From NCBI GenBank assembly GCA_016198745.1, contig JACQHZ010000407.1, positions 1-55,099 of the forward strand: a stretch of 55,099 nucleotides of DNA. The letters are read 5' to 3'. A program made the translations under genes and the position numbers. The notes below the pieces were generated by a model. The model was not told where the DNA came from and did not search any database. It saw only the letters and a program-made list of their open reading frames with translations. This stretch comes from Verrucomicrobiota bacterium (GTDB lineage: Bacteria > Verrucomicrobiota > Verrucomicrobiia > JABWAM01). Below are positions 26,608 through 55,099 of the stretch, piece after piece (position 1 is the stretch's first letter; every line of letters begins with the position of its first letter).

Positions 26608-26609
26608 CC

Positions 26610-30936: not shown

Positions 30937-30997
30937 TACCCTGGTGGGACCCATGGGAACCTTAGCAGACCAAAGATGTAGGAAAAACCGTCTGTCC

Positions 30998-31803: not shown

Positions 31804-31884
31804 TGTCCCTTAAATAACTAGACGTCAATCGGAACACTGTGCGCAACCGAATGGATTTGTCCGGCGGACCCGCTTTGGCGTAGC

Positions 31885-32235: not shown

Positions 32236-33285
32236 CTATCGCACCACCGCCACCGAATCGCCCTTGACCAGTTCCACCGGACAGATCCGCTGGACGGGGC
32301 CTTTGAGGCGGCCCTCCAGCCGCTCGATCAGCGTGGCAACCGCCAGATGTCCCAGGGTGAGCGGATGCTGTTCGATGCTGGTGATTTTCAAGAGACCGTC
32401 AGGCGATGACACATTACCGAAGCCAGCCACGGAAATATCGAACGGCACCCGCTTGCGCAGGCGGCGCAGGATTTGAATGCCTTGCCGGGCCACGTGGTCC
32501 GAGTCGAACGCAATGCCCGTGATGCGATGGTCGGCGCCGAGCAGTTGGTTGATGACGGCCAGCAGATTGTGCCGGGCCTTCGAGAAACAATGCAGGCGTT
32601 CCGCCGATTCGCCCAGACCCCGCTTGCGAAACTCGTCCAGAAAACCACGGGCGCGGTCCATCAGGTCTCCGCGCGCGGCATCCTGGGAAATAAAGGCCAC
32701 GTGCCGATGGCCGCATTCGAGGAAATGCCGGGCCAACAAACGGCCGCCCCCCGCGTTGTCGGTCTGCACCTGGTCCGCCTGCGCCCGTTGGACGGCGGTA
32801 TCCAGGAACACCACCGGCAAGTTGCGGACGCCGGGTTGGAACGGGCGGTTGATGATCAAGCCGTTGAGTCCGGTGGCGCGCACGTATTTCCAGAAACGGT
32901 CAACATCGATTTCGGTTTCGTTGGCCGGCGACTGGAAGAACAGCAGGCCGTAGGAACGGGACTGCGCCTCCTCCTGAGCGCCAACCAGGAGGTGCGAAAA
33001 ATAGGTGCCGGGCCGCAGGTTGAGATAAATGCCAATCAGGGGCAGGTTTCGGGCAAAGGGATCGGCGACAAAGGTGCCCGCCCCATGCCTCCGTTCCAGG
33101 AAACCATCCGAAACCAAGATGGCCACCGCTTTGTTCGCCGTGGTCTTGTTCACTCCGAATTGGGACGCCAACGCGTACTCGGATGGAATCTTTTGCCCCG
33201 CACCCCAACGGCCGCTCCGGATCAGGCGGACGAGGTGTTCCTTGATCTGGAGATGTTTCGTGGAGCGACGTTTGGACTTTGGCAT
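32236..33285 (-). CDS. transcriptional regulator: GntR-type winged HTH fused to a LacI/PBP1-type sugar-binding domain
   Basis: N-terminus IKEHLVRLIRSGRWGAGQKIPSEYALASQFGVNKTTANKAVAILVSDGFLERRHGAGTFV is a GntR HTH. The rest resembles a periplasmic-binding-protein type 1 effector domain (GLIINRP, VVFLD, HVAFIS). Start set at MPKSKRR (ATG 33285). Confidence 0.8.
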   Translation of the reverse strand: MPKSKRRSTKHLQIKEHLVRLIRSGRWGAGQKIPSEYALASQFGVNKTTANKAVAILVSDGFLERRHGAGTFVADPFARNLPLIGIYLNLRPGTYFSHLLVGAQEEAQSRSYGLLFFQSPANETEIDVDRFWKYVRATGLNGLIINRPFQPGVRNLPVVFLDTAVQRAQADQVQTDNAGGGRLLARHFLECGHRHVAFISQDAARGDLMDRARGFLDEFRKRGLGESAERLHCFSKARHNLLAVINQLLGADHRITGIAFDSDHVARQGIQILRRLRKRVPFDISVAGFGNVSSPDGLLKITSIEQHPLTLGHLAVATLIERLEGRLKGPVQRICPVELVKGDSVAVVR

Positions 33286-33560
33286 GGGGCAACGAAGACT
33301 ACTTCGTCTCAAAACCTCTTGTCCATCCTGATCAATTCCACGAGATGAGGCGCGATGCGCTCAACCAGGCTCGCGGCGATGCCGCCGCGACCCTTCCACC
33401 ACCAGGGAGTCCAACGTCCGTTGGCGGCGGCGGCGTTCAATTTCAAGGAATGCTGCCAAGCAAGACCAAGTTGCTGGCCGCACTCAAAGGCGGTTCCTTC
33501 AAAGCTCAGGAGCGGGACGTTCCCTTCCGGTGCGCAACGATGGAATTTCGTTTTCAGAAG

Positions 33561-36500
33561 TTAGAGTACGGTCGTTCCAAGCAGGCCAACCAGCACTTCA
33601 TTGGAAAGGCAATCCAAGCGCACCCAGGCGATCTCTTGCAGCGCGCCCAGGTCCATGTTCAGAATCACCGCGTGAGTCTTCTCGCCCAGATATTGCGTGA
33701 AACCGCTTTGATGATAAGGCGTGCAAAGCCAGTCATCAAGATTGTCGGGATTGATCAGAGGCAGTTCTCGCACGCCTCCGTCGGCGAGCGTGACCGAAAC
33801 CCGCGCGTTCTCGATCCGGCTTTGCATGGGGTTGGTGGACGCGACGAGAAGGAGGAAAACCTCGCGCCCTCTCTTGTGAATGGGCAACTCGACGCTCCGG
33901 GGAAAATTCCGCCACTGGGAAGTGAAAACGACGTTGCGACCGTCTTCGGGGACCGCAAACGGGACCCCAAGGTCCGACCAAAAGGTCCCGCCCGTGCCTT
34001 TGAGTCTTTCGACGCACGGGTTGACCACACAACGGCCGCTGGCGTTGTGATCCCAGATCGAACGCCCGTCCTTCTTGACCGTGATCGAGTAGGTCATGGG
34101 ACGCGGATCGAGGTATTCGCGCTTGTGCAAGAGCACAAGGTCTTCGTTTACGTGGTCAGCCAACGAAACCATCTGCCAGGGCAGGTTCCGCCGCGCGCTT
34201 GCGTCAGTCGGAAGATTGTCAAATGGTCGCGTCACATTCCCAGCCGGCGCGCGCACCTCGAAGTCCACGGGCAGCCACGCCGCGCAGTCGTTCTGGCGCG
34301 TTAGCACGAAACAGATATGCCAACCGGCTTCCGCTCCAACTTTGGCGGTGAGTTCGGTCCTCGACCGCTTCGCGTCCGTCAGCGCGCCCTGCGGATCGCG
34401 CCACTCGAGCAACTCGCCATGTTTTGCTTTCACGACAAACGACGCGTCACGTTGGGCGCGGTTGGCAAATTCGACGGCGGGCAGTTCCGACGGCGCATAC
34501 GTGATTTCGATTTCGGCGGCCTTCGTGGCTGTTGTCGCGATGGCGACCCAGGTTCGTCCGATGCCCGGTTCCAAACGAAACGAAACACGCGCTCCGTTCA
34601 GCTTGACCTCGGTCACCTTCGATGTGCGCGCCATCAGCCGGACTTGATACCGCAACTTGCGCGGCGTGGAGATGCGAATGCTCTCCACCGCCCCGTCCCA
34701 GGTGTAGCGGCAGGCGATGTCTTTCGCTTCAATCGAGGCGTGTTTCCAATCGCGCGGAAAACATGGCTGAACCGTCACCTGGTCATTCGGCGCATCCATC
34801 TGCACGCCGAACAGCCCTTCCACAATCGTTCGTAGAAACATCGAGGTGGCATCGGTGAAGTCGGTCGATCCTTTTTGACGGCCATCCGGGAACACCCAAT
34901 GCGTGAACGCCCCCGGACAGGGGCCCGCGAGGAAGCTGGCCATGATGCCGTCGAGCAACGCCTCCGCTTGCGCGGCCAGGCCGAGACGATAGTAACACAG
35001 CAAGAGATGAATCATCTCTTGCGGAAAAAGCCCGTGACTCGAATACAGCGGCGGCAACCAGTTGCTCGACCACACCAGCCGTCCGCCGCCGGAAACGGTG
35101 TCGGTCTCGTTGGGAATGGCGTGTTCGCTGTAGCGCAACATCTGGTAGCTCTCGAAATCATCGCAGAATCTCGCGTCGATGGGGAGATAGATGCTGGCCA
35201 GTTCCGGGGCCTCGTGTCGGCGCATCAAGCCGAGGGCATCTTTGTATTCGGCGTATATTCCCTTGTCGGAAACCCAGAGTTGCGCGCGACAGGCCGCCTT
35301 GATTTTCGCGGCGCGCGCATCGAAGACGCCGGCGTCCCGGCCAAGGCGGTACGCGATCGCGGCCATCAGTTTGTTCGCGCGCCAGTTATAGACGCTGGCC
35401 TGGATGCAACCGCCGCCGTTATACCAATGCGCGTCCGAACCCCATGTGTTCAGAAAATTTTCATAAAGCCCGTCGCCGTCCGCGTCCAGACAGCGCTCTT
35501 CCCACAACAACTTGTCGGCGATGAAATCGAACATGCCCGCCATGAAATCGAGGTCGCCCGTCCATTCCCAGTCGTAGAGCGCGTGATCCACCAACACCTC
35601 GCCCATGTTATAAACGCCAAAGTTGAACACGCCCTTGGATGTTCGAGCGACAGGCAGGATGAAACCGCGACATTCCGCGCCGCCGGGATAGTTCCCATAG
35701 ACGGGCCAATGGATATTCGGAAATTCCGGTTCGCGAAGCTGGCTCGCGCGAAATTCAGCCGTGGAAGATTGGACGCGGTCGTGCCAGCCGAGCACGGTTG
35801 CGCCATAGCAAATCCGCCAGCCCGCGTAAGGGGTCGTCCATGACCACGGGCCGTGAGTGAAGGTCGGATCATGCCACGCGGCGTCCTGCGCCAGCACTTG
35901 GGCCGCGAAACCCAGATCGAGGCGCTTGTCGGGCGTTTCGATGCGCGTTGTCTGAGAGAGATTCCAGTAATGCCGGCAGCACGCTTCAAAGACCGGTGAC
36001 GGGTTCTGCAGACAAGCCCGGATCGAGGACGAGGAAAGGTTCTCCGTCGTGAGCGCCAGGTAGAGTTGCATGCCCGGCGTTGCTTCACAGGCCGCGACCA
36101 CGAGCGGCTGATTGCCGGGTTGCGAAGCGAGTGCCGCACCCGGGCCGCCGCCGAAAGCGGAGGCATCGCCGATGCGCCAATGCATGGCACGATTGGCGGC
36201 GGCGAAGAGCGTCCTTTGATGTTCCTTTTGCGGTCGGCGCAAACCGAAACCGTTTTGAAGCAACGAGATTTCGTTGCCTTCGCAGTCCGCCGGCTTGAAA
36301 TCCCTGGCACTGCCCCGCCCCAATTGGTAGTCGAGCGTCCCGATCTTGAAAAGCGTCGCGCCGCCAAAGGCGCACACCAGTTTGCCCGCTGGAAAGATTT
36401 TGGGCAACACCAGTTTGATCAACAGTCCCTCAAATTCCACGGGCGAAACGCAGAAAATTCGGATCGGTTCAGCGAGACCATCCGTGCGCAATTCATATTC

Positions 36501-36842
36501 CTGATGCCCTCGCACGTAGCGGGCCTTGATGAAGTCGAAATCATCGAGCCATGCGTCCACGTTCCCCGCGCGAACGCCGGGCAGGAAATGCCCCAGCTTC
36601 ACGTCGCCCATGTAATCTTCTTTGTGCGCGACGCGCCAGTTGATCAGCGTGATCAGGGCGTTCGGGCTGTCGCCGACGATTGAAAGCAAACGCTCCTCGA
36701 AATGATCGCGGTCGCGGCAATGCGGACCGGGCAGGTAGCGATTGTAAATGCCGGGACCGTTGACGATCTCGAAACCGTCGTTCACCACGTCATACGCGGG
36801 CGATTGTGGTTTCAGCGTCATGGAATGGTTGCGGGATTTCAC
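33561..36842 (-). CDS. large (alpha/alpha)6 six-hairpin glycosidase-like protein (family unassigned)
   Basis: 1093-aa ORF. The central region DADGDGLYENFLNTWGSDAHWYNGGGCIQASVYNWRANKLMAAIAYRLGRD...LLCYYRLGLAAQAEALLDGI is typical of six-hairpin barrels (GH78/GH95/GH65-like fold). No signal peptide seen. Confidence 0.6.
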   Translation of the reverse strand: MKSRNHSMTLKPQSPAYDVVNDGFEIVNGPGIYNRYLPGPHCRDRDHFEERLLSIVGDSPNALITLINWRVAHKEDYMGDVKLGHFLPGVRAGNVDAWLDDFDFIKARYVRGHQEYELRTDGLAEPIRIFCVSPVEFEGLLIKLVLPKIFPAGKLVCAFGGATLFKIGTLDYQLGRGSARDFKPADCEGNEISLLQNGFGLRRPQKEHQRTLFAAANRAMHWRIGDASAFGGGPGAALASQPGNQPLVVAACEATPGMQLYLALTTENLSSSSIRACLQNPSPVFEACCRHYWNLSQTTRIETPDKRLDLGFAAQVLAQDAAWHDPTFTHGPWSWTTPYAGWRICYGATVLGWHDRVQSSTAEFRASQLREPEFPNIHWPVYGNYPGGAECRGFILPVARTSKGVFNFGVYNMGEVLVDHALYDWEWTGDLDFMAGMFDFIADKLLWEERCLDADGDGLYENFLNTWGSDAHWYNGGGCIQASVYNWRANKLMAAIAYRLGRDAGVFDARAAKIKAACRAQLWVSDKGIYAEYKDALGLMRRHEAPELASIYLPIDARFCDDFESYQMLRYSEHAIPNETDTVSGGGRLVWSSNWLPPLYSSHGLFPQEMIHLLLCYYRLGLAAQAEALLDGIMASFLAGPCPGAFTHWVFPDGRQKGSTDFTDATSMFLRTIVEGLFGVQMDAPNDQVTVQPCFPRDWKHASIEAKDIACRYTWDGAVESIRISTPRKLRYQVRLMARTSKVTEVKLNGARVSFRLEPGIGRTWVAIATTATKAAEIEITYAPSELPAVEFANRAQRDASFVVKAKHGELLEWRDPQGALTDAKRSRTELTAKVGAEAGWHICFVLTRQNDCAAWLPVDFEVRAPAGNVTRPFDNLPTDASARRNLPWQMVSLADHVNEDLVLLHKREYLDPRPMTYSITVKKDGRSIWDHNASGRCVVNPCVERLKGTGGTFWSDLGVPFAVPEDGRNVVFTSQWRNFPRSVELPIHKRGREVFLLLVASTNPMQSRIENARVSVTLADGGVRELPLINPDNLDDWLCTPYHQSGFTQYLGEKTHAVILNMDLGALQEIAWVRLDCLSNEVLVGLLGTTVL

Positions 36843-36884: not shown

Positions 36885-37604
36885 CTACTTCCACTTTCGC
36901 GCAATGTTGGATATGCGCACTTCGTCAATCGCGCCCTCAAAATCACCGTCGTGCGCGCGATCGCCGATGCGGAGGGTGAGGTTCGGGTTTGTCAAATCAA
37001 TCAATCCCTTCATCGAAACGGCTTCTCCCGCGACACCGTCCACATACAACCCCGCGTTCGCCTTTCGCTCGGCGATCAGCGCGAGGTGATGCCACTCTCC
37101 GTCGTTCACTTTCGCCTCATGTTTCAATTCAATCCGCCGCACGCCGTCGGCGATGAGCGCGTTGACGTTGCCGCCGCGAAGGTAAACCATGAAGCCCGGA
37201 TGCGTGGGAGCCGGATTGCATTTCTTGTTGATGAGATGACTGTAGGCGTTCGTCGTCGTGGTTTTGATCCAGAGTTCGACGGTGAAATCGGTCGAGTCGC
37301 CAAAATCGAAATCGGGCGGTTTGCCTCGTTCGCCTCCGCAATCCACGTAATCATCGTCGCCGTCAAACTCAAGCGCCTTGCCAAATTTGCCTTCCGTCAT
37401 CTTGGCGCCGTTGATCTTGCCGTGGTTGCCGCGCTCGCTGCCATCCTGGGCAATGCCGCTCTTGGCGTCGTCGAGGTGGAGGAGCAGGAGGGTATGCGCG
37501 TCGGCGACGGGCGGTTTGGTGAGGTCAATCAGGTCGTCCGCCGCAAACGCAGTGAACGAGCAAGACGCGATCAAACAAAACACAAACGTGATTTCTCTCT
37601 TCAT
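36885..37604 (-). CDS. secreted LamG (concanavalin A-like lectin/glucanase, Laminin_G_3) domain protein
   Basis: Signal peptide MKREITFVFCLIASCSFTAFA. Motifs LLLLHLDD..G..A.D.S..GNHGKI.G....EGKFGKALEFDG.DDYVDCG, DFTVELWIK, NDGEWHHLALI, LYVDGV, FEGAIDEVRISN. Paralog at 51224..51958. Confidence 0.85.
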   Translation of the reverse strand: MKREITFVFCLIASCSFTAFAADDLIDLTKPPVADAHTLLLLHLDDAKSGIAQDGSERGNHGKINGAKMTEGKFGKALEFDGDDDYVDCGGERGKPPDFDFGDSTDFTVELWIKTTTTNAYSHLINKKCNPAPTHPGFMVYLRGGNVNALIADGVRRIELKHEAKVNDGEWHHLALIAERKANAGLYVDGVAGEAVSMKGLIDLTNPNLTLRIGDRAHDGDFEGAIDEVRISNIARKWK

Positions 37605-37628
37605 TGTGCATTCTTCCTTTCCATGAGG

Positions 37629-40064
37629 TTATTTTCCGAATTTCCATTCCCCGAAATGGTTCGGTTCGGCGAAGCGTTCTTCGACGCCGTTCCAGGTTGA
37701 GTTTTCCTTGCTGGGTTGTTCTTCGCGGGCCAGATTGGCCCGCCAAACCGTGCTCACGGAAGGCGCTGGCGCGCCGAGCGACGCAAACGGAATCTGGATT
37801 TCAACTGTCCATGCGTTCCCGTCCGCTTTCGTGGCGCAGGACCAATCAAGATTGTAAGCGACCTTGTCGTTCAGGCCATCCCATTGCGCGCCTGCGGGGT
37901 TGACAGTAAGATGCCACCAATGGCTCGGATCGTTTGTTTCGCTGAAAAACACTTCGATCAAGTCGTCATCGTGGTAAATCTTGCCGTCGTCACGCGGCCA
38001 GCGATTCGCTTTAATTTCATCGGATTTCAATTCCGCGCAGCGAAACGCGATGTAGAGGTTGGCGTCGTCATAGATCAATCGGGCGGTCGTGACGCGGCTG
38101 GCGGAGACACGCATTCCCGCCAGGCGGAACTCATCCGCCACCGCCACCTTGGCCCAGGCCGCGTCGGAAAGATCGCCGTCAAGGATGGGCGCGGCGGTTC
38201 CGGCCGGCAGACGCGGGATGACAAGCTTGCGCTGCTCCGGCGCCCAGATCGCCTTCGGATCGGCCGTCAACGCCAAGGCTAACTCCTGGCCGCGCTCCCC
38301 ATCGGAGCAATGGAAGACGGATTGGGCCGGGTTCTTGAGCAGACCCGCCCGGCGCAGGTTGTCGTGGAGTTGAACCAAGTTGTCGCCGAACATTTGCAAT
38401 CGCCGCCGCTGCGGCTCGGTCTGCGCCTGGCGCAGGGCTTCACCGTACAATCGCTTGATCTGCTCGAAGCGGGGGAGATAAACATCCACGATGACGTCGT
38501 AGGTGACGTCGTAATTTCGCTTCGTTTCTTTCCGTTTGTGCTCCTTCAGCGCTGAATCAAGCAGCGCGAACAACTCCTGCATGGTTCGCCAACCAGGACC
38601 GTAGGCGCGTTCCAGCCATTCCCGATAGGTTTTCTCGACGTCAATGTTCGCGTCCCATGCTTGCCTGGCAAACAGATAGTTCAACGGAGCGCCGTATCCC
38701 CAGGCGTTGAGGCCAACCAGGTAAACGCCTTTCGCCCCAACGCTTTTGATCGTGGGGATTTCCAGCTTGAGAAGCTCGATGCTTGGCGGAATCGGTGCGC
38801 CAGACTGCGACCGCATCCACATGGTGTAACTGGTGAGCGAAAAGTGTTTCGTCAACACCGACCAAGCTCGCGCGACATCCTTGAACTCAGCGAGATGCTT
38901 GGGCTTGTAGAGGCCGAAGCCGTAGTATTCGAGGGCCGCCCATTCCAGCGCCACATTAGGCTCCATCGAGATCGCGCGTTGAGGCGGGTACATGTAGTTG
39001 TAATAAACCAGCCCGCAGAGCAGCTTGTCGGGATATTTCGCTCCGACGATTTTGGCGATGTCATTGTAGAACTTGAGGATCAGATAGCTGTACGACGGAT
39101 CGCCGTGCGGGTTCTTCTCGACAAAGGAGAGGCATGTCGGGCACTTGCAAAAGCCGCCGCCATCCGTTGGTGAAATGCAAGCAAACGGCATTTCTGGATG
39201 TTTCTCGATCCAATGAATCACACCCTGGGCGAACTCTCGCACCACCGCCTCCTTGCTCGTACAGTACTTGTCTTTATCACCGTCAACCGCCAGGTATTCA
39301 GGATGTTTTTTCAACGTCTCTTTCGAAATGTATTCGTCCCAAGCATGTCCGGCGCTGGTGAGAAGGGTGCCGCCGAGTTTTTGACGGCGAATCCACTCGT
39401 TCACTTCGGGCCGGCCTTTTCGTCCGCCGGCGCTCTCCTGGACGTAAGCAAGAATGCGCTTGGGAAAGGCAGGCGACTCAGTCAGATTGATCCGCGGGAT
39501 GCGCAATTTGGCGCGCTTCGGGATATCCTCGCCCCACTCGCCGGGGAGCAACCAACGAACATCCAGAAACTTTTCGAGGAAGGCATACGTCCCGATCAGC
39601 GTGCCATGACTCACCCGGATATCGCCTGCCGCGCCGCCGGGTTGGGAGGTGATCTTCGCGTCAGGATCGTCCTTTCCCGCAATGAAGAGGTTTTGTTCGC
39701 GCGACTGAATAACAAACGCGTCGTCGGGAAGACCTTTCAGGGAAATGCCGGCGGCGCGAGACGCCGCTGTATCGCCGAGTGCGATCATCGGCCTAGCCGG
39801 CCCATGCACAATGGGAAGCTTCACGCCCGCTGCGATTTCGATGCCGCGCTGCAATTCTTGCGCGGCAAGTTTGATGGAGCTGGGCGCGTTCGTCTCAAAA
39901 TAAATTCGATACTGGGATTGTCCGTTTTGAGCAATCCGGAATGAGGGATCGCCGCACGAGGCGCAAAGGACCGCCCCCACCAGCAAGGCAAGTGGAAGAA
40001 GACAGCGGCCTTTGCCCACTGATGACTGCTCACTGATCACTGATAACTGATCACTGGTTCTCAT
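37629..40064 (-). CDS. DUF4838-like secreted protein with C-terminal CBM9-like carbohydrate-binding domain (copy 1)
   Basis: Lipoprotein-like signal [18 protein letters not shown]. Central CxCxxC ([10 protein letters not shown]). C-terminus [18 protein letters not shown]...ANLYIAFRC...DDLIEVFF...WTVEIQIPF...WRANLAREE is CBM9/DOMON-like. ATGA overlap with the DUF1559 stop (40061..40064). The DUF4838 call is from memory, not searched. Confidence 0.7.
40015..40056. repeat. six tandem imperfect heptamers (minus strand CAGTGAT/CAGTTAT...) at the DUF1559/DUF4838 junction, copy 1
   Basis: Plus strand: CCCACTG ATGACTG CTCACTG ATCACTG ATAACTG ATCACTG. On the minus strand these are translated in frame as ..[15 protein letters not shown].. 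at the N-terminus of 37629..40064. Confidence 0.8.
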
Positions 40065-40822
40065 GGCGTCCATTGCTGGCTGTCGTTGACAAACTTTTCA
40101 ACGGCTTGCTTCTCGGCGTGACCATTCACGAAGACGACGTTGATGATCTTGCCGTGGCGGCCATTCAGCGAATCCTTGGTGAAGTCGGCATTATACATTG
40201 CCGTGCCCGCTGGGTTGTAGCCGGGGATGTACCAGTAGGCGTAGCCCGGATCCAACGCGGTGCTTTGTCGGATCATGTATCCGCCGGCGTCGAAAACGAA
40301 AATGATTCGCGCGGATTCTGCGACCGATGACAACTTTCGCGGCGGATAACACAGGTCTCTGAGAAGACCGTAGTTGCCGAATTCAATTTGCCCAGCAGAC
40401 TGAACGCCGGAGGGGCACTGTTCCCATTCAACGACTTCCGTGTAAGGGACATTTCTTCCGGTGATGACTTTCGCAACTTGTTGCTGCCAGAAAACGTCTG
40501 TGCCTCCCGCAAATTCATAGCCGGTCGGGCAATAATCATTCTCATCGTTGGCGTACATCAAGAGTCCGTGATACAGGTTCTTGAGATTGGACAGGCATTT
40601 CACCCCCTTTGCCTGTTCCCGGGCGTTTCGCAGGGCGGGCGCCAGCAGCGCCGCCAGAATCGAAATGATTGCAATGACGACCAAGAGCTCAATGAGCGTA
40701 AATGCTGATTGCTCCCGCTTTGCGGGACCGAATGCCGATTGCCGATTGAATGACGACACGTGAAGCGTGAGCGGTGAGCCGCAACGAAGCATCTCCTGAT
40801 TCGCGGATCGTTTATCATTCAC
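40061..40822 (-). CDS. DUF1559-like prepilin-type protein (first gene of operon)
   Basis: [33 protein letters not shown] and C-terminal [16 protein letters not shown] start at 40822 (alternative ATG at 40792). Close paralog of 54563..55099. Confidence 0.8.
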
Positions 40823-40852: not shown

Positions 40853-41036
40853 CATGCGTCCGTCCTCGCGGAAGCGGGGATCGCCAACCGTTGAACCGTG
40901 AACCTCTGAACCGTGAGCCTGAGTGGTTGCCATTCCTGTCACTATACGCGCTTCCCGAACCAGAACAACGAACGGCCGCGGGGAACCTCGGGATGTGAAT
41001 GAGTCACTTTTCGGAGGGCCGCCAAGTCATTCCTTG
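40853..41036 (-). promoter_or_regulatory. conserved promoter/5' leader cassette, copy B
   Basis: Aligns with 2737..2905. It carries GTGAATGAGTCAC at 40995..41007 and an expanded TGAACC-repeat block at 40885..40919. The cassette's terminal ATG (40855..40853) opens only an 8-codon mini-ORF (MKIERQLR*), which stops 6 nt before the in-frame GTG of the DUF1559 gene. Confidence 0.5.
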
Positions 41037-41073
41037 TCATTTGCCGCCGCGTTTTTCATATTCCGTACTCCCT

Positions 41074-41108
41074 CAACCGTTGAACCGTGAACCCTTGAAC
41101 CCTGAACC
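41074..41108. repeat. TGAACC-type 7-8-nt tandem repeat block (third locus)
   Basis: CAACCGTTGAACCGTGAACCCTTGAACCCTGAACCC. The 20-mer CAACCGTTGAACCGTGAACC is also found at 2769 and 40885. It is followed by the hairpin CCCCCGC-TTTT-GCGGGGG. Confidence 0.7.
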
Positions 41109-43006: not shown

Positions 43007-43024
43007 GGTTCACCTTTGCGTGAA
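42807..43024. repeat. 218-bp direct repeat, copy 1 (3' end of the URO-D-like gene plus 18 nt)
   Basis: Aligns without gaps to 43830..44047, with roughly 15-20 mismatches by eye. The first ~95 and last ~45 nt are almost identical. Confidence 0.9.
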
Positions 43025-43033
43025 GAACGGTTT

Positions 43034-43718: not shown

Positions 43719-43829
43719 GCGTGTACTCTATCGGATCCGGTCCCGTAGTTCAATGAAAAATCAAACACGCTGTAGGTCGAACGCATAGACGCCTTCGGTG
43801 CCGTCGCCAATCGCCAGTGGCCAAGATCA

Positions 43830-44146: not shown

Positions 44147-44821
44147 TTACGGACTCGGACTCCAGAAGATGTCGCCCCCGGGCCGATTATCGATCCACGC
44201 CTTGCTTTTCCATTCGGCATGGCCGTCAACAAAAAGGGCATTGAACCCGTTGGCATGCAGGGCCGGACAGGTATTCCCGCCCCCCGGTATCCCATAATCC
44301 GATCCAAAATAGTCGTTGATGTCCGCGGCGGTCAACCCGGTTCCGTCAACCACTACGGCTTCCTCCGCCGGGCGCCGGAATTGCGACAGACGTCGCAGAT
44401 TGTACACCCAGGTTCCTGCGTTCCAGAATCCGAAATATAAATTATAAGAGTAGGTGCCAGACCAAGTGTGCCAGTACCCCTTGGACTTCCAGGTGAGGCA
44501 CGGCAGTTTCTGGATGCCGCCCTGGTAAGGCTCCAGCAGGGTCGCCCAGCACCACGCCGTCCCGGGATTCCGAGCGCCGGGCAGGTAGTCGTCATTCTCC
44601 TGCGCATACATTACCAGCGCATAACCAATCTGCTTGAGATTACTCAGGCACGCCGCCTGGCGTCCCTTTTCCCGGGCCTGGCTGATCGCGGGCGAGAGCA
44701 GCGCCGCCAGGATGGAAATGATCGCGATGACCACCAGCAATTCAATGAGGGTGAACCCTCGTTGAATTGACCGGTTCGGGCTTCCGATCCGCCGGCGGCT
44801 ATCAGCAGGAATAAGGGGCAT
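44147..44821 (-). CDS. DUF1559-like prepilin-type protein
   Basis: [33 protein letters not shown] and C-terminal [14 protein letters not shown] prefer ATG 44821 (MPLIPADS..) over the TTG at 44848. Confidence 0.8.
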
Positions 44822-44901
44822 GAGGCAGCGCTCCCAGTTAATGACCAAACATACTGCGCATCACCGCCGATTCCTATTCGAAATCCCCCCTTCCTTCCCA
44901 A

Positions 44902-44924: not shown

Positions 44925-46445
44925 TCAGGAAAGTTTCTTGGCGCGCTCGAAACCGTCGTCGGCATCATGCCGCGGGATGCCCGGCAGGTCCGGCTGGTGA
45001 ATCTTGAAATTTTCACGGACCGGTCCGCGCGGCTGGAGGAGCACCCCGTGCTTTTCAAGGGCGGCCCGTCTTTCCGCCAGGTCCAGGCGCATGGGCGTAA
45101 GCCCCTTTTTCGCCGCCAGCGCCGCCAAAATGCCGCAGGAATATCCCGCCGCCATGCACTGCACACTGGCCCGGACGGCGTAGCCCTGGTCGGCGCACCG
45201 TCCCGCCACCAGCAGGTTGGGCACTCCTCTGGGCGCGAACATTCCCAACGGCAAGCCGAGCATGTCCCGGGTGGCCAGGCAAATGGCGTCTTCGCGAATA
45301 GCCGGCCGCGAACGATCTTCCGCCTGGAGCCGGTCTTCGCCGACAATTTCGCGTCCGCCGCGGGCCACCGTTTGCGCCCCCATGGTGCGGATCACCGCTT
45401 TTTCGAAACCGGGCAGGTACTTTCGACAAAACTGGAGAAATTCGAAGGCGTATTTGCGCGCCGCGGCTTCCGCAATGGATACATGGCGGACGTCATGGGG
45501 ATCCAGACCGGTAACCATGCAAACATTCGCGGTTACGGTGTCGGCGCCATGCCAGGGTTCCGGCCAGAAGCCGTCCCAGCCGTAGCGAATCATGCCGCCT
45601 TCCGGCAGTTGGCGGACCAGATCGAAATCGCCAGCGGCCACCGCTTTCATGATCTGAGGACGAAACGGCCACGCGCGATTTTTGCCATCCACCCACTCGC
45701 CCCAATAGAGATCCTTGGTCATTTCTGCCACGGTCATGCCCAGGTGCTTCGCCAACCAGGGCGTCCATTCCGGACAACTCCGGGGACAGGCGGCGAGGAA
45801 TGCCTGATAACGTTCCAGGTCCACCCAACCCATTTCGAAAAGCAAACCCCAGGAATACTTCCGGGTTTTCTCATCCTGCATCGGCGCCCCCAGGCTGCAA
45901 GCCACGTCGGCTTCGCCCGAGCAATCCACCACCTGGCGGGCGCGCAGCGCCTGGCGGCCGCCCTTGCATTCGAACAGGAGATCATATCCCCCGCCGTTGA
46001 CGGGCAAAGCCCGGCTGAAGCAGGCGTGCAGCCATATTTCCACGCGGGCTTCCTCCAGCAAGCGCAGGCATTCCCGTCCGGCATGTTCATGGCGGTAGAA
46101 AATACAATCGCCGGCCGCAAGAGCCTCCTCCAGGGAAGCATACGGCGTGGCGCCCGATGCAATCACCCGCCGCAGCAGTTCGACCGGAGGCCCTCCCATG
46201 ATGAACTGTCCCTGGCTGTTAAAAAATCGATTGCCAAAATGTCCCATCAACCCCATGTTGATCATTCCGCCCACGTTGCCAAAACGCTCCATGACGGCGG
46301 TTCGCGCACCCTCCCGGCTGGCGCCCACCGCGGCCATCACCCCGGCGGTGCCACCGCCCACTACGGCCACATCCACTTCGCTGACAATCGGAATTTCTCT
46401 GGCCAGTTCGGTCACCGACAATTTTGTATTCATGGGCAAGTTCAA
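44925..46445 (-). CDS. FAD-dependent oxidoreductase (FAD_oxidored/GIDA-like fold)
   Basis: N-terminal dinucleotide-binding motif DVAVVGGGTAGVMAAVGASREGARTAVMERFGNVGGM. 506 aa. Confidence 0.8.
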   Translation of the reverse strand: MNLPMNTKLSVTELAREIPIVSEVDVAVVGGGTAGVMAAVGASREGARTAVMERFGNVGGMINMGLMGHFGNRFFNSQGQFIMGGPPVELLRRVIASGATPYASLEEALAAGDCIFYRHEHAGRECLRLLEEARVEIWLHACFSRALPVNGGGYDLLFECKGGRQALRARQVVDCSGEADVACSLGAPMQDEKTRKYSWGLLFEMGWVDLERYQAFLAACPRSCPEWTPWLAKHLGMTVAEMTKDLYWGEWVDGKNRAWPFRPQIMKAVAAGDFDLVRQLPEGGMIRYGWDGFWPEPWHGADTVTANVCMVTGLDPHDVRHVSIAEAAARKYAFEFLQFCRKYLPGFEKAVIRTMGAQTVARGGREIVGEDRLQAEDRSRPAIREDAICLATRDMLGLPLGMFAPRGVPNLLVAGRCADQGYAVRASVQCMAAGYSCGILAALAAKKGLTPMRLDLAERRAALEKHGVLLQPRGPVRENFKIHQPDLPGIPRHDADDGFERAKKLS

Positions 46446-46455
46446 TCAACCTCCC

Positions 46456-51223: not shown

Positions 51224-51958
51224 TCAGTTCTTCACTTTTCGGGCGACGGTCGAGATGCGGACCTCGTCCATCATTCCGTCGAGCGGGTCGTCGTGCCCGC
51301 GATCGCCGATCCGCAGGGTGCGGCGCGTGTTCGTAATGTCGAGGAGGCCCTTCATCGGAATCGGCTCGCCCGGCGCGCCGTCCACGTGGAGCGTTGCGTC
51401 ACCCTTGCGTTCGGCGACCAGAACGATGTGGCGCCACTGGCCGTCGGCGACCGGCGCGGGATTCTCGACCACGATGGAATTCTGTCCATCCGCGAAGATC
51501 GCCTTGGCCTTCCCGAGGTGAAGAAAGATCATGAAGCCGGGTTCCTCGGCCGCCGGGTTGCATTTCTTGTTCACGAGGTGCGCGTAACGGTTCTTCGTGG
51601 AGGTGTTCACCCAGAACTCGATCGTGAAATCCGTCGACTCGCCGAGGTCGAAATCGGGCGGCTGCTTTCGCTCGCCCCCGCAATCCACGTACTGGTCCTT
51701 TCCGTTGAAGCGGAGCGCCTTGCCGAACACGCCGGGAACCCACTCGGCCTTGCCGCCGATCTTCCCGTGGTTGTTCTGTTGACTGTCATCCTTCGCGATC
51801 TCCCCGCTGCTCTCGTTGAAGTGGAGGAGGAGCACAGTGGTTGAATCGGCGCCCGGTGCTTTGGAGGGGTCCACAGGTTCCACCTGGGCCGCCCACGCGG
51901 GCATGGCGAGAAAGTCCAGCGCGAGCGCGCCGGCGAAAAGGAGGGGGATGGTTTTCAT
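51224..51958 (-). CDS. secreted LamG domain protein (paralog of 36885..37604)
   Basis: Signal peptide MKTIPLLFAGALALDFLAMPAWA (ATG 51958). Motifs VLLLHFNE..G.IAKD.S..NNHGKI.G, FGKALRFNGKDQYVDCG, DFTIEFWV, DGQWRHIVLV, LHVDGA, LDGMMDEVRIS. Confidence 0.85.
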   Translation of the reverse strand: MKTIPLLFAGALALDFLAMPAWAAQVEPVDPSKAPGADSTTVLLLHFNESSGEIAKDDSQQNNHGKIGGKAEWVPGVFGKALRFNGKDQYVDCGGERKQPPDFDLGESTDFTIEFWVNTSTKNRYAHLVNKKCNPAAEEPGFMIFLHLGKAKAIFADGQNSIVVENPAPVADGQWRHIVLVAERKGDATLHVDGAPGEPIPMKGLLDITNTRRTLRIGDRGHDDPLDGMMDEVRISTVARKVKN

Positions 51959-54387: not shown

Positions 54388-54516
54388 GGGAGCGGCACCG
54401 AGGTTGGGGTGGTAGAGGTCATTGTAAGCAGCGCGCGCGTCACCCGGTAGTGCCAGGTGAGCGCGCAAAGGTACGCCCCCACCAGCAAGGCGAGCGGAAG
54501 AAGACGGCGACATTTG

Positions 54517-54558
54517 CCCACTGATAACTGATCACTCATAACTGATCACTGGTCACTG
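54517..54558. repeat. six tandem imperfect heptamers at the DUF1559/DUF4838 junction, copy 2
   Basis: Plus strand: CCCACTG ATAACTG ATCACTC ATAACTG ATCACTG GTCACTG. On the minus strand, the ATG that overlaps the DUF1559 stop (54566..54564) hits TGA after 6 codons inside this tract. Confidence 0.8.
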
Positions 54559-54562
54559 ATCC

Positions 54563-55099
54563 TCATGGCGTCCATTGATAACTGTCGTTCACAAACTTCT
54601 CAACCGGTTGCTTCTCGGCGTGCCCGTCCACCATGACCACGTTGATTGTCTTGTTGTGACGGCCGACGATGGCGTCCTTGGTGAAATCGGCATTCCACAT
54701 GGCCGTGCCCGCCGGGTTGCAGCCAGGGATGTACCAAAAGGCGTAGGACGGACTCAACGCGGTGCTTTGTCGGATCATAAATCCGCCGGAATCGAAAACG
54801 AAAATGATTCGCCCGGGTTCTGCGACCGATGACAATTTTCGCGGAGGATCACACAGGTCTCTGAGAAGCCCGTAGTTACCGTTTAACATATTCCCAGCGG
54901 CCAGAGTGCCAGATGGGCAACGCTCCCATTCGATGATTTCCACGGCAGAGACATTTCTTCCAGTTACAGTTTTCGCAACCCGATGCTGCCAGTAGACATC
55001 TGTTGTTCCATCGGACCACCAACCGGTCGGGCAATAATCATTTTCATCGTTGGCGTACATCAAGAGTCCGTGATACAGGTTCTTGAGATTGGACAGGCA
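54563..55099 (-). CDS. DUF1559-like prepilin-type protein, 5'-partial (runs off the window)
   Basis: C-terminal [27 protein letters not shown]. Strongly similar to 40061..40822 at protein level and, for the last ~60 nt of the window, at DNA level (40541..40600). Confidence 0.8.
   Translation of the reverse strand, partial: CLSNLKNLYHGLLMYANDENDYCPTGWWSDGTTDVYWQHRVAKTVTGRNVSAVEIIEWERCPSGTLAAGNMLNGNYGLLRDLCDPPRKLSSVAEPGRIIFVFDSGGFMIRQSTALSPSYAFWYIPGCNPAGTAMWNADFTKDAIVGRHNKTINVVMVDGHAEKQPVEKFVNDSYQWTP

What the first reader, a model, noticed from the sequence alone, without database searches (positions are those of the whole stretch)
36885..40822. Duplicated, translationally coupled core of DUF1559 pseudopilin, DUF4838/CBM9 and LamG, each followed by a different six-hairpin enzyme
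The triplet 40822->36885 (DUF1559, DUF4838 with CBM9-like tail, LamG) recurs at 55099->51224. All three proteins are clearly paralogous between the copies, and the gene junctions are conserved, including a heptamer tract. In copy 1 the pseudopilin stop and the DUF4838 start overlap (ATGA, 40061..40064). Each triplet is followed by a large but apparently unrelated (alpha/alpha)6-type protein (33561..36842; 48990..51206). The second operon continues with a third DUF4838/CBM9 gene, an FAD oxidoreductase and another DUF1559 gene. No pilus or T2SS assembly genes are present in the window. The repeated physical coupling of a type IV pilin/T2SS-pseudopilin-like protein to carbohydrate-binding secreted proteins suggests an undescribed module. 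One possibility is a pseudopilin-anchored or pseudopilin-exported glycan capture and processing unit of PVC bacteria, with interchangeable catalytic partners.
Basis: inference. Interest (0 to 1): 0.7.

Follow-up and report, generated by a model that had tools for sequence, protein, structure and literature searches.

The report
Pilin-led glycan-degrading operons, duplicated
Two related sugar-chain-degrading operons in a PVC-type bacterium each begin with a small pilin-like gene, and the same pilin / glycosidase / lectin-like gene set recurs in other uncultured bacteria, which suggests the huge unexplained "DUF1559" pilin-like family supplies a dedicated partner to individual glycan-degrading operons.

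Summary
The gene map is real. On the minus strand, pilin-like, DUF4838(+CBM9-like) and small LamG genes occur twice, each followed by a signal-peptide-less six-hairpin enzyme.

Three details need correcting:
- DUF4838 is the catalytic domain of CAZy GH163/GH185 glycosidases, not merely a binding protein.
- A and B are remote homologues. B is a confident GH94-phosphorylase-like fold.
- The repeat is a mosaic. The DUF4838-LamG pairs are old paralogues (52-55% aa), each with its own orthologues elsewhere. The pilin plus about 110 nt of leader is a recent intragenomic copy (about 80% nt). In copy 2 that leader is a dead relic.

The linkage holds outside the window.
- The pilins next to DUF4838-LamG in three other contigs are pil1's closest relatives.
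- Lentisphaerae carry pilin->LamG->DUF4838.
- Four pilin homologues chosen only for contig length all sit in "regulator -> pilin -> large GH/CBM/unknown protein" cassettes.
- The broad DUF4838 family is not pilin-linked: 71 of 78 contigs have no pilin-like ORF.

Best reading: the pilin is an operon-specific minor (pseudo)pilin that works with the LamG protein and the secreted glycosidase at the envelope, and the cytoplasmic six-hairpin enzymes finish the job. The linkage is shown; the mechanism is inferred. Interest is moderate to high.

The parts
40061..40792 (-). pil1: short DUF1559-related type-IV-pilin-like protein (243 aa). It has a class III signal peptide (...QSA|FTLIELLVV), a long alpha-1 helix, an alpha/beta head and a C-terminal H-X9-NG-H motif.
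   Evidence: Pfam N_methyl 2e-8 and TIGR02532. SBP_bac_10 reaches only 14 bits. AF2 model pLDDT 88 with helix 33-83; Foldseek gives only weak pilin hits. 2350 homologues at E<=1e-10.
40017..40056 (-). Imperfect heptamer tract (CAGTGAT x about 6) between the pil1 stop and the hydrophobic signal sequence of DUF4838-1. It is in frame with the ATGA-overlapping start.
   Evidence: The tract is absent from all 173 fetched loci and from the L163 junction.
37629..40064 (-). DUF4838-1: secreted, possibly lipid-anchored, putative glycosidase. GH20/GH67-type N-domain, DUF4838 TIM-barrel catalytic domain and CBM9-like C-terminal domain. An alternative start is GTG 40019.
   Evidence: PF16126 1.7e-35, CBM9_1 7e-10, GH67N 5e-4. 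Family role taken from PMC10570127. Orthologues in L001 and L162 at 59-62%.
36885..37604 (-). LamG1: small secreted concanavalin-A-like/LamG protein (signal peptide ...AFA|AD).
   Evidence: Laminin_G_3 2e-20. Belongs to a defined subfamily of about 240 aa (alignment A2). Directly follows DUF4838 in L002, L162, L163 and L164.
33561..36842 (-). A: 1093-aa protein without a signal peptide. It has an N-terminal DUF4450 domain and a probable (alpha/alpha)6 domain at residues about 323-699.
   Evidence: DUF4450 4.7e-11. hhalign to the B-family profile: probability 88%, E 3e-6. No PDB sequence hit.
32236..33312 (-). GntR-HTH plus periplasmic-binding-fold sugar-sensing regulator, downstream of A on the same strand. 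The same kind of regulator flanks the related loci.
   Evidence: GntR 2.6e-18 and Peripla_BP_3 3e-23. The same family occurs in L001, L002, L162, L163 and L167.
40885..41093 (-). 5' region of the pil1 operon. It holds two exact copies of the 20-mer GGTTCACGGTTCAACGGTTG (40885-40904 and 41074-41093). A third copy lies 5' of the GH29 fucosidase gene (2769-2788).
   Evidence: 4 hits against 0.01 expected; family D18.
54563..55099 (-). pil2: a paralogue of pil1 whose 5' end is cut by the window edge. It carries H-X9-DG-H.
   Evidence: 76% aa identity to pil1. The first 77 nt visible are 99% identical to pil1. Only 43% identity to the pilin of the orthologous locus L163.
54388..54562 (-). Relic leader. 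It contains the heptamer tract (54519-54561), a decayed copy of the first ~36 codons of a DUF4838-1-type gene with an in-frame stop, and then a copy of the first 28 nt of gene B (54394-54421).
   Evidence: (D1, D19).
52006..54387 (-). DUF4838-2: 793 aa, with its own Sec signal peptide (MIKSLLLVLIAVLAAPAPA|EP) and a CBM9-like tail.
   Evidence: PF16126 1e-34; CBM9_1 22 bits, just under the cut-off. Gene call of 793 aa. 74% identity to L163's DUF4838.
51224..51958 (-). LamG2: small secreted LamG protein (244 aa).
   Evidence: Laminin_G_3 1.8e-18. 69% identity to L163's LamG.
48990..51206 (-). B: cytoplasmic GH94-like protein made of an N-terminal beta-sandwich, an (alpha/alpha)6 barrel and a C-terminal beta domain. 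Its first 28 nt (51178-51205) are repeated at 54394-54421, so the DUF4838-2/LamG2 pair is bracketed exactly by a 27/28 direct repeat.
   Evidence: AF2 pLDDT 87, pTM 0.89. Foldseek top hits are cellobiose/chitobiose phosphorylases, E 6e-24, TM 0.65. The family profile hits GH94 chains in the PDB at 8e-5. 9 of 40 family members hit MGH1-like_GH. Homologue in L001 between DUF4838 and LamG. Repeat: family D19; chance expectation 3e-7.
46456..48993 (-). DUF4838-3: third, more divergent DUF4838/CBM9-like paralogue.
   Evidence: PF16126 7.5e-36. 36-37% identity to D1 and D2; 45% to the upstream DUF4838 of L163.
44925..46445 (-). PF12831 FAD-dependent oxidoreductase without a signal peptide. The pairing with DUF4838 is conserved elsewhere.
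   Evidence: FAD_oxidored 1.8e-49. Homologues directly follow DUF4838 in L013 and L017 (729 and 721 bits).
44147..44848 (-). pil3: third short DUF1559/H-X9-DG pilin-like gene, last in cluster 2.
   Evidence: N_methyl 9e-10, SBP_bac_10 32 bits (passes), TIGR04294 20.3 bits (passes). 34% identity to pil1.

Best explanation
These are two paralogous glycan-utilisation operons of a PVC-type bacterium.

COMPONENTS
- A short type-IV-pilin-like protein of the DUF1559/H-X9-DG family.
- A secreted DUF4838 glycosidase: the GH163/GH185-type TIM barrel, probably a beta-N-acetylhexosaminidase-like enzyme using substrate-assisted catalysis, with a CBM9-like tail.
- A small secreted LamG lectin-like protein.
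- A cytoplasmic six-hairpin enzyme. B is GH94-phosphorylase-like. A is a larger remote relative.

PROPOSED MECHANISM
1. The sugar-sensing regulator switches the operon on.
2. The pilin-like protein is processed by a prepilin peptidase encoded elsewhere. It then enters a shared type-4-filament or T2SS-like machine as an operon-specific minor (pseudo)pilin.
3. Together with the LamG protein it holds, presents or helps export the DUF4838 enzyme at the envelope or cell surface, where the enzyme clips oligo- or disaccharides from a fucosylated, HexNAc-containing glycan.
4. The fragments are imported and cleaved by A and B in the cytoplasm.

SHOWN VERSUS INFERRED
- Shown: gene content, folds and domain families, presence or absence of signal peptides, and conserved gene linkage across organisms.
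- Inferred: co-transcription, filament incorporation, physical pilin-LamG-DUF4838 contact, substrates, and the enzyme activities.
For: FAMILIES AND FOLDS
- Domain assignments.
- DUF4838 is the catalytic domain of GH163 (BT1035) and GH185 (Sp_0475): PMC10570127.
- B has a GH94-like fold. A is remotely related to B.
- pil1 is predicted as a pilin-type alpha-1 helix plus head, and its only structural matches are pilins.

LOCALISATION SIGNALS
- The DUF4838 and LamG proteins have Sec-type signal peptides. A, B and the FAD enzyme have none (sequences).

LINKAGE BY DESCENT
- pil1's best homologue in 5.8 billion proteins is the pilin of L163 (50%, 5e-67; next best 36-37%). That gene overlaps DUF4838->LamG by ATGA.
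- The pilins of L163, L162 and L002 are the best matches to pil1 among all pilin-like ORFs in hand (alignment scores 605, 481 and 248, comparable to the best unlinked pilins at 287-288 for L002). All three sit in DUF4838-LamG loci.

INDEPENDENT RECURRENCE
- pilin->LamG->DUF4838 occurs in Victivallis and Lentisphaeria contigs.
- LacI->pilin->DUF4838->DUF4838 occurs with a DUF4838 subfamily only 77 bits from the window's.
- GntR->DUF1559->GH95-like->LamG->...->DUF4838 occurs in L167.
- AraC->pilin->960 aa and AraC->pilin->1093 aa occur in L172.

ENRICHMENT
- In the unbiased DUF4838 genome scan, both small-LamG-positive contigs have an adjacent pilin, against 5 of 76 LamG-negative contigs (Fisher p=0.007).
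- Over all independent loci the counts are 7/10 against 5/76 (p=1.5e-5).

ROSETTA-STONE FUSION AND PRECEDENT
- P0207 is a prepilin N-terminus fused to a related LamG domain.
- Precedent: S. sanguinis PilC, a modular minor pilin with a concanavalin-A-like lectin module that binds glycans (PMC9934059).

CONTEXT
- GH29 and GH95 fucosidases, GntR-PBP regulators and sugar oxidoreductases surround these genes in the window and in the related loci.
Against: - No T2SS/T4P assembly genes or prepilin peptidase are in the window, and no expression or localisation data exist.
- The pilin head has no significant structural relative (best Foldseek E 0.07), so nothing says it binds sugar or protein.
- The broad DUF4838 family is mostly pilin-free (71 of 78 contigs). 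L164 and L168 have LamG without any pilin. The pilin is therefore not obligatory for these enzymes.
- The window holds 8 pilin-like genes in 55 kb, so local density is high.
- pil2 is a recent copy or conversion of pil1, so the two window copies count as one observation.
- Lineage confounding is possible: LamG-positive loci may come from pilin-rich genomes. Whole-genome backgrounds could not be computed.
- Membership of the DUF4838 proteins in GH163 or GH185, and their catalytic residues, were not tested.
Confidence: 0.42

Rival explanations
1. Membrane-tethered periplasmic partner, not a filament subunit. The pilin-like protein stays in the inner membrane through its alpha-1 helix. It acts in the periplasm as an operon-specific scaffold, chaperone or binding protein for the LamG/DUF4838 proteins or their oligosaccharide products, for example handing products to a transporter. 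This is the 'solute-binding protein' idea behind the Pfam name SBP_bac_10.
For: - The linkage data are the same as for the main explanation.
- No filament machinery lies nearby.
- Hundreds of paralogues per genome are easier to picture as individual periplasmic adaptors than as filament subunits (68 paralogues in P. limnophila, PMC10632474; 74 in R. baltica, described there as a new solute-binding family, PMC2754498).
- The regulator -> binding protein -> enzyme order resembles sugar-uptake operons.
Against: - The predicted fold is pilin-like and shows no similarity to periplasmic binding proteins.
- F1, E5 and the hydrophobic helix are invariant in 61 sequences. These are the features needed for prepilin-peptidase processing and filament packing (established knowledge of type 4 pilins).
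- No ABC or other transporter genes lie next to the pilin genes in the cassettes seen.
Confidence: 0.25
2. No functional coupling. The DUF1559/H-X9-DG family is so numerous and so prone to local duplication and gene conversion that pilin genes simply accumulate in accessory, frequently rearranged glycan-utilisation islands. The triplet is hitch-hiking plus one segmental copy.
For: - There are 8 pilin-like genes in this 55-kb window, including three in tandem.
- pil2 plus its leader is a recent intragenomic copy with a decayed 5' stub.
- 71 of 78 DUF4838 contigs lack any pilin-like ORF.
- Pilin position varies: upstream, downstream, divergent, or one to two genes away.
- pil3 sits at the end of an operon rather than the start.
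Against: - The pilins of four DUF4838-LamG loci from different samples form one clade that tracks the enzymes' divergence.
- Start/stop overlaps occur between the pilin gene and the next gene in L163, L011, L169 and L172.
- In contigs with a single pilin-like ORF in 16-19 kb, that ORF is next to LamG or DUF4838 (L011, L029, L162, L163).
- The stereotyped regulator->pilin->large-protein order was seen in every one of four unbiased samples.
- A pilin-LamG fusion protein exists.
Confidence: 0.15
3. Cargo-specific secretion adaptor only. The pilin-like protein is a pseudopilin variant that lets one general T2SS recognise and push out the operon's own secreted proteins (DUF4838, LamG). It plays no role in glycan capture or display after export.
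For: - The N-terminal 60 residues match GspG best (TIGR01710, 1e-9; PDB 5wda GspG).
- The partners carry Sec signal peptides and must cross an outer membrane to reach polymeric glycans (inference from sequences).
- Each cassette pairs one pilin with one or two large secreted proteins.
Against: - The GspG equivalog score is far below its cut-off (38 against 89 bits).
- The existence of pilin-LamG fusions and of glycan-binding modular pilins (PMC9934059) points to the lectin being carried by the pilin rather than merely exported.
- Several downstream proteins in such cassettes were not checked for signal peptides.
Confidence: 0.13

Closest known systems
Polysaccharide utilisation loci (Bacteroidota PULs) and PUL-like operons of PVC bacteria
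   Same: A sugar-sensing regulator, secreted endo- or exo-glycosidases with CBMs, accessory glycan-binding proteins and downstream cytoplasmic enzymes are clustered and duplicated as paralogous loci. The context is fucosidases (GH29, GH95) and sugar oxidoreductases.
   Different: There is no SusC/SusD pair or TonB-dependent transporter. A type-IV-pilin-like gene occupies the leading position instead.
CAZy GH163 (BT1035 endo-beta-N-acetylglucosaminidase) and GH185 (Sp_0475 6-sulfo-GlcNAcase), the two characterised DUF4838 families (PMC10570127)
   Same: The Pfam PF16126 catalytic TIM-barrel domain is present at E about 1e-35 in all three window proteins, preceded by a GH20/GH67-type N-domain. 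BT1035 also carries a C-terminal putative CBM.
   Different: The window proteins have a CBM9-like tail, whereas BT1035 has F5/F8 and Sp_0475 is cytoplasmic. Their assignment to either CAZy family, their catalytic residues and their substrates were not tested. The paper's sequence-similarity network shows many uncharacterised DUF4838 clusters.
Modular minor type 4 pilins with a lectin module (Streptococcus sanguinis PilC in the PilA-PilB-PilC tip complex; PMC9934059)
   Same: A pilin moiety is associated with a concanavalin-A-like/LamG-type glycan-binding module. A fused version related to LamG1 exists in metagenomes (P0207).
   Different: Here the pilin and the LamG protein are separate polypeptides. 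LamG has its own Sec signal peptide, and a glycosidase is part of the set. No pil locus is adjacent, and the family has many paralogues per genome.
T2SS pseudopilins (GspG and the GspH-I-J-K tip complex)
   Same: Class III signal peptide, conserved E5, a long alpha-1 helix and a small alpha/beta head. The best N-terminal sequence matches are GspG and T4 pilins.
   Different: Scores are far below the equivalog cut-offs. The head domain has no significant structural match. The genes sit in catabolic operons rather than a gsp operon. The C-terminal H-X9-DG motif is foreign to Gsp pseudopilins.
DUF1559 / H-X9-DG 'prepilin-type processing-associated' proteins of Planctomycetota, Verrucomicrobiota and Lentisphaerota (PF07596, TIGR04294)
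   Same: The architecture is the same: prepilin N-terminus, the conserved region after the helix, and the H-X9-DG tail. The copy number is very high.
   Different: The window's proteins are a short subgroup of about 210 aa mature, against 300-450 aa for typical members. pil1 and pil2 fall below both curated cut-offs. No function is published for the family, so this comparison cannot explain mechanism.
GH94 glycoside phosphorylases (cellobiose / chitobiose phosphorylase)
   Same: B shares the three-part architecture of N-terminal beta-sandwich, (alpha/alpha)6 barrel and C-terminal beta domain (Foldseek E 6e-24, TM about 0.65). Like them it lacks a signal peptide.
   Different: Sequence identity is 11-14%. 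There is only a weak profile hit (8e-5) and no Pfam GH94 hit for B itself. Catalytic and phosphate-binding residues were not checked, so B could be a hydrolase of a new family.

Membership tests
Type IV pilin-like / type 4 filament subunit | Class III signal peptide: short basic leader, Gly or Ala at -1, Phe at +1, Glu at +5, then about 20 hydrophobic residues | tested here: met
   pil1 reads ...REQSA|[20 protein letters not shown]; pil3 reads ...IQRG|FTLIELLVV. Pfam N_methyl 2e-8 and 9e-10; TIGR02532 above cut-off. F, T, L, I, E, L, L, V, V are invariant in 61 homologues. The pil2 N-terminus lies outside the window.
Type IV pilin-like / type 4 filament subunit | Lollipop fold: an extended alpha-1 helix of about 50 residues packed on a globular alpha/beta head | tested here: met
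   AF2 model pLDDT 88, with helix 33-83 followed by strands and helices. The only Foldseek matches with probability above 0.4 are T4 pilins, and these are weak (E 0.07-0.5).
Type IV pilin-like / type 4 filament subunit | Processing by a prepilin peptidase and assembly by an ATPase/platform machine | not testable with these tools
   No such genes were found among about 40 ORFs of the window. The rest of the genome is not available.
DUF1559 (PF07596) / H-X9-DG (TIGR04294) | Score above the curated cut-offs of PF07596 (23.3 bits) and TIGR04294 (19 bits) | tested here: inconclusive
   pil3 passes both (32.1 and 20.3 bits). pil1 scores 14.1 bits with no TIGR04294 hit and has H-X9-NG. pil2 scores 13.6 and 16.5 bits. 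Their homologues, including P0242, carry precomputed PF07596 hits.
T2SS major pseudopilin GspG (TIGR01710) | Equivalog score of at least 88.85 bits over the whole protein | tested here: not met
   38.4 bits for pil1 and 40.9 bits for pil3, over the N-terminal 60 residues only.
DUF4838 glycosidases (CAZy GH163 / GH185) | Presence of the PF16126 catalytic domain | tested here: met
   E-values of 1.7e-35, 1.1e-34 and 7.5e-36, covering about 310 of 325 profile positions.
DUF4838 glycosidases (CAZy GH163 / GH185) | Sequence clustering with BT1035 (GH163) or Sp_0475 (GH185), and conservation of the active-site residues mapped in Sp_0475 | not tested
Only the paper's text was read.
CBM9 | Pfam CBM9_1 above the gathering score (23.4 bits) | tested here: inconclusive
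   D1 scores 39.5 bits (passes). D2 scores 22.3 and D3 20.1 bits, both just below. The best PDB sequence hit is the T. maritima xylanase 10A CBM9 at E 0.59.
LamG / concanavalin-A-like lectin fold | Pfam Laminin_G_3 above cut-off (27.6 bits) | tested here: met
   73.8 and 67.5 bits. Sugar binding itself was not tested.
Six-hairpin (alpha/alpha)6 glycosidase/phosphorylase (GH94-like) | (alpha/alpha)6 barrel flanked by an N-terminal beta-sandwich, with significant structural similarity to GH94/GH65/GH63 enzymes | tested here: met
   This holds for B: the AF2 model (pTM 0.89) against GH94 chains gives E 6e-24 to 1e-18 and TM 0.62-0.68. For A there is only the hhalign link to B's family (probability 88%).
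Six-hairpin (alpha/alpha)6 glycosidase/phosphorylase (GH94-like) | GH94 catalytic Asp and phosphate-binding residues | not tested
   No residue-level superposition was made.

The most novel reading that the evidence does not exclude
Short DUF1559/H-X9-DG proteins are a large repertoire of interchangeable, operon-encoded minor pilins. Each is co-regulated with its own secreted glycosidase, CBM or LamG cargo and plugs it into one shared type-4-filament machine. This would be a pilus-based functional counterpart of the SusC/D-type surface glycan capture and processing system in PVC bacteria. It would also give a molecular basis for the glycan-binding fibres seen on Planctomycetes (PMC5394234).
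Probability: 0.2. Interest if true: 0.85.

Novelty: new variant of a known kind. Interest (0 to 1): 0.6.

Why it matters
DUF1559/H-X9-DG proteins are among the largest paralogous families in Planctomycetota, Verrucomicrobiota and Lentisphaerota. Examples are 68 copies in P. limnophila, two of them essential (PMC10632474), and 74 copies in R. baltica (PMC2754498). They have no assigned function.

The evidence here ties a subgroup of them, gene by gene, to separately regulated operons for secreted glycan-active proteins. The order is stereotyped (regulator -> pilin -> enzyme), the pilin co-inherits with a DUF4838 glycosidase / LamG pair, and a natural pilin-LamG fusion exists. That turns an open question, what these pilin-like proteins do, into a set of directly testable predictions.

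It also identifies three things:
- A widespread DUF4838->LamG gene pair.
- A family of 818 representative sequences (50%-identity clusters, E <= 0.001) of GH94-like proteins that no Pfam model covers for B itself.
- Candidate enzymes for fucosylated, HexNAc-containing glycans.

If the pilin role holds, it would describe how bacteria without SusC/D organise glycan capture and secretion.

Tried and rejected
- The metagenome scan with the LamG alignment returned only distant LamG proteins (27-37% identity) from other lineages. They hold no prepilin motif in 543 kb.
- PDB sequence searches for DUF4838-1, A and B found nothing significant.
- Rfam found no known RNA in the window, so the conserved leader is not a known riboswitch or leader.
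- The heptamer tract as a phase-variation switch: rejected as unlikely. The units are imperfect. Both copies are exactly 45 nt from ATGA to GTGGGC. Copy 2 is closed by a substitution-type stop rather than by a change in unit number. The tract occurs in no other locus.
- The tract and the 20-mer as conserved regulatory elements of the module: not supported outside this genome. Within the window, however, the 20-mer links the pil1 operon with the GH29 gene.
- 'SBP_bac_10 means periplasmic solute-binding fold': the model shows no similarity to PBP folds.
- The promoter/terminator scan gave counts at or below shuffled expectation and was not used.
- A was compared with all ORFs of the fetched loci and no homologue was found. 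Its family remains undefined apart from DUF4450, and no paper mentions that domain.
- The literature was searched for DUF1559, H-X9-DG, and pseudopilin with Planctomycetes and glycoside hydrolase. No paper describing this linkage was found in the held library. That is not proof that none exists.

Full report
1. WHAT IS IN THE SEQUENCE

All genes of interest lie on the minus strand.

Cluster 1:
- pil1 (40792..40061)
- DUF4838-1 (40064..37629)
- LamG1 (37604..36885)
- A (36842..33561)
- a GntR/periplasmic-binding-fold regulator (33312..32236)

Cluster 2:
- pil2 (cut by the window end, ..54563)
- DUF4838-2 (54387..52006)
- LamG2 (51958..51224)
- B (51206..48990)
- DUF4838-3 (48993..46456)
- a PF12831 FAD oxidoreductase (46445..44925)
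- pil3 (44848..44147)

Between the clusters lie a HEPN/nucleotidyltransferase pair and, on the plus strand, a URO-D-like gene with a partner.

Pfam and NCBIfam support the labels:
- PF16126 at about 1e-35 for all three DUF4838 proteins.
- CBM9_1 clearly for D1 and just under threshold for D2 and D3.
- Laminin_G_3 for both LamG proteins.
- N_methyl/TIGR02532 for the pilins.

The Pfam DUF1559 model itself passes only for pil3. pil1 and pil2 score 14 bits, and pil1 carries H-X9-NG rather than H-X9-DG. These are therefore short relatives of DUF1559, about 210 aa when mature.

The rest of the window is a sugar-catabolism neighbourhood: a GH29 fucosidase, GH42-like proteins, ThuA and GFO/IDH/MocA oxidoreductases, an aldehyde dehydrogenase and aminotransferases. 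It contains five more short DUF1559 genes. No type-4-filament assembly gene was found.

2. THE REPEAT IS REAL BUT MOSAIC

Protein identities are pil1/pil2 76%, D1/D2 51-52%, LamG1/LamG2 55% and D3 about 37% to both D1 and D2.

Along the DNA, identity is about 80% over the pilin gene and the following ~110 nt. The first 77 nt visible of pil2 are 99% identical to pil1. Identity then falls abruptly to 52-73% over DUF4838 and LamG.

Comparison with related loci explains the break:
- D2 and LamG2 are orthologues of the L163 genes (74% and 69%).
- D1 and LamG1 are orthologues of the L001 and L162 genes (59-63%).
- pil2 is 76% identical to pil1 but only 43% to L163's pilin.

So the two DUF4838-LamG pairs are old paralogous lineages. 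The pilin plus leader was recently copied or converted between the two loci.

Copy 2 still shows the scar. After the pil2 stop comes the same 45-nt heptamer tract. Next is a decayed copy of the first ~36 codons of a DUF4838-1-type gene, in the same frame but with a stop after six codons. Then comes a copy of the first 28 nt of gene B. Only after that does the DUF4838-2 start appear, with a different signal peptide.

That 28-mer (54394-54421) and the true start of B (51178-51205) match at 27 of 28 positions and bracket the DUF4838-2/LamG2 pair exactly. The chance expectation is 3e-7. This suggests the pair moved as a two-gene cassette.

The ATGA overlap in copy 1 is real. The tract may nevertheless be untranslated spacer if the GTG at 40019 is the true start. 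In the orthologous locus L163 the pilin stop and the DUF4838 start overlap cleanly by ATGA with no heptamer tract. The tract occurs in no other fetched locus.

3. WHAT THE PROTEINS ARE

DUF4838. This is no longer a domain of unknown function. It is the catalytic domain of two CAZy families, both distantly related to GH20 and using substrate-assisted catalysis (PMC10570127):
- GH163: BT1035, an endo-beta-N-acetylglucosaminidase that releases LacNAc units from complex N-glycans.
- GH185: Sp_0475, a 6-sulfo-GlcNAcase.

The window proteins have signal peptides and a CBM9-like tail. They are therefore probably secreted or surface glycosidases, not only binding proteins. Which CAZy family they belong to was not tested.

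B. It belongs to an uncharacterised family with 818 representatives at E <= 0.001. The profile hits GH94 phosphorylases weakly (8e-5). The AlphaFold model (pLDDT 87, pTM 0.89) is a beta-sandwich plus an (alpha/alpha)6 barrel plus a beta domain. Its best structural matches are cellobiose and chitobiose phosphorylases (E 6e-24, TM about 0.65).

A. It has an N-terminal DUF4450 domain, and residues 323-699 align to the B-family profile (hhalign 88%, E 3e-6). A and B are thus remote six-hairpin relatives.

Localisation. Neither A, B nor the FAD enzyme has a signal peptide. They should act in the cytoplasm on imported fragments.

pil1. It is modelled confidently (pLDDT 88) as a 50-residue alpha-1 helix on a small alpha/beta head. 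Its only structural neighbours are type 4 pilins, and these matches are weak. There is no resemblance to periplasmic binding proteins. In 61 homologues the F-T-L-I-E-L-L-V-V motif, two cysteines and the H...DG-H tail are invariant.

4. IS THE PILIN LINKAGE MORE THAN COPY NUMBER?

Evidence for the copy-number view:
- A genome scan with a DUF4838 alignment gave 79 loci on 78 contigs (1.1 Mb). Of these contigs, 71 have no pilin-like ORF at all.
- The window itself is unusually pilin-dense.

Evidence against it:

(a) The really conserved core is DUF4838->LamG. The two are adjacent or overlapping in L002, L162, L163 and L164, and they share an operon in L001.

(b) pil1's nearest homologue in the 5.8-billion-protein collection is the L163 pilin (50%, 5e-67), while all other hits are at most 37% identical. 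Among all pilin-like ORFs in hand, the pilins of L163 and L162 score highest against pil1, with L002's pilin (248) in the range of unlinked pilins (287-288). All three lie in DUF4838-LamG loci. The pilin subfamily therefore co-inherits with the enzyme pair over a depth at which the enzymes have diverged to 46-62% identity.

(c) A different pilin subfamily precedes LamG->DUF4838 in Victivallis and Lentisphaeria contigs. In each case it is the only pilin-like ORF in 16-19 kb.

(d) Four pil1 homologues (33-37% identity) were chosen only because they sit on long contigs. All are in the same kind of cassette:
- LamG(1117 aa)->pilin->CBM4_9 protein (L169).
- LacI->pilin->DUF4838->DUF4838 (L170 and L171, with a DUF4838 subfamily only about 77 bits from the window's).
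- LacI->pilin->909 aa (L171).
- AraC->pilin->960 aa and AraC->pilin->1093 aa (L172).
L167 adds GntR->DUF1559->GH95-like->LamG->...->DUF4838 and GntR->DUF1559->708 aa.

(e) In the unbiased scan both small-LamG-positive contigs are pilin-adjacent, against 5 of 76 LamG-negative contigs (p=0.007). Over all independent loci the counts are 7/10 against 5/76 (p=1.5e-5).

(f) A fusion protein with a prepilin N-terminus and a LamG domain related to LamG1 exists (P0207).

Caveats:
- The numbers are small.
- The loci were reached through homologues of the window's own genes.
- LamG-positive loci may come from pilin-rich lineages.

5. MECHANISM

I commit to the following, with confidence of about 0.4. The pilin-like protein is an operon-specific minor (pseudo)pilin. 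Once processed and inserted into a shared T2SS/T4P-type filament encoded elsewhere, it works with the LamG lectin-like protein to export, hold or present the DUF4838 glycosidase at the envelope. The enzyme clips HexNAc-containing oligosaccharides from a fucosylated glycan. The products are then imported and cleaved by the GH94-like six-hairpin enzymes, with the FAD oxidoreductase and URO-D-like proteins as further cytoplasmic steps.

The closest mechanistic precedent is the S. sanguinis PilA-PilB-PilC tip complex. There the minor pilin PilC carries a concanavalin-A-like lectin module that binds host glycans (PMC9934059). Glycan-binding fibres have been observed on Planctomycetes (PMC5394234), but nothing connects them to DUF1559 so far.

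The rivals are:
- a non-filament periplasmic tether or scaffold (0.25);
- pure hitch-hiking (0.15);
- a secretion-only adaptor (0.13).

Gene linkage, folds and signal peptides are shown. Co-transcription, processing, complex formation, substrates and activities are all inferred.

6. NOVELTY AND VERDICT

The individual families are known, and the operons are PUL-like. What appears undescribed in the literature I could search is threefold:
- the stereotyped regulator -> short DUF1559 pilin -> secreted enzyme cassette;
- the conserved pilin / DUF4838 / LamG set;
- the DUF4838->LamG pair.

I class it as a new variant of a known kind (glycan utilisation loci; modular or minor pilins), with interest 0.6.

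Noticed in passing
window 42807-44047: A HEPN (43034-43432, -) / nucleotidyltransferase (43398-43718, -) toxin-antitoxin-type pair lies between two 218-nt direct repeats (42807-43024 and 43830-44047, 93% identical). The first repeat is the 3' end of the URO-D-like gene 41939-43006 (+). It looks like an insertion that duplicated the gene end.
   Followed up: partly
window 22000-32000: This is a low-GC stretch (0.46-0.52 against 0.58-0.62 elsewhere). It holds a 1033-aa ORF without any Pfam hit (22197-25298, +) followed by a short DUF1559 pilin-like gene (25422-26174), and three tandem short DUF1559 genes (29054-31624, +). A further, truncated-looking one is at 20231-20746 (-). That makes eight pilin-like genes in 55 kb.
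   Followed up: partly
window 2769-2788, 40885-40904, 41074-41093: The exact 20-mer GGTTCACGGTTCAACGGTTG (heptamer-like direct repeats) occurs three times, all on the minus strand. One copy lies 5' of the GH29 fucosidase gene and two lie 5' of pil1. The expected number is 0.01, and it is absent from all 173 fetched loci. It may be a shared operator or promoter element, or a genome-specific dispersed repeat.
   Followed up: partly
window 51178-51205 and 54394-54421: A 28-nt direct repeat (27/28 identical) brackets the DUF4838-2/LamG2 pair exactly. The downstream copy is the start of gene B. This suggests the two-gene pair was inserted as a cassette.
   Followed up: yes
window 44925-48993; L013 3424-7459; L017 546-4584: A DUF4838(+CBM9) gene directly followed by a PF12831 FAD-dependent oxidoreductase is conserved in two other contigs, from Lentisphaerae and Verrucomicrobia MAGs (about 720 bits). 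This second conserved pairing of DUF4838 is unexplained.
   Followed up: no
window 41151-43006 (+); L001 8150-10269; L162 11835-13951; L165 313-1128: A URO-D-like gene, usually with an upstream partner of about 370 aa that has no Pfam hit, recurs beside the DUF4838/LamG loci in several contigs. PhyH and DHDPS-like genes recur there too. Their role in this pathway is unknown.
   Followed up: no
protein P0207 (JGI metagenome, 299 aa): This is a natural fusion of a prepilin-type N-terminus (MRTEKA|FTLIELLVV...) to a LamG domain related to LamG1 (33% identity, E 2e-12).
   Followed up: partly
window 19090-19644 (+): An Uma2-family putative restriction endonuclease gene (3e-35) stands alone between the sugar-oxidoreductase genes and the low-GC stretch.
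   Followed up: no
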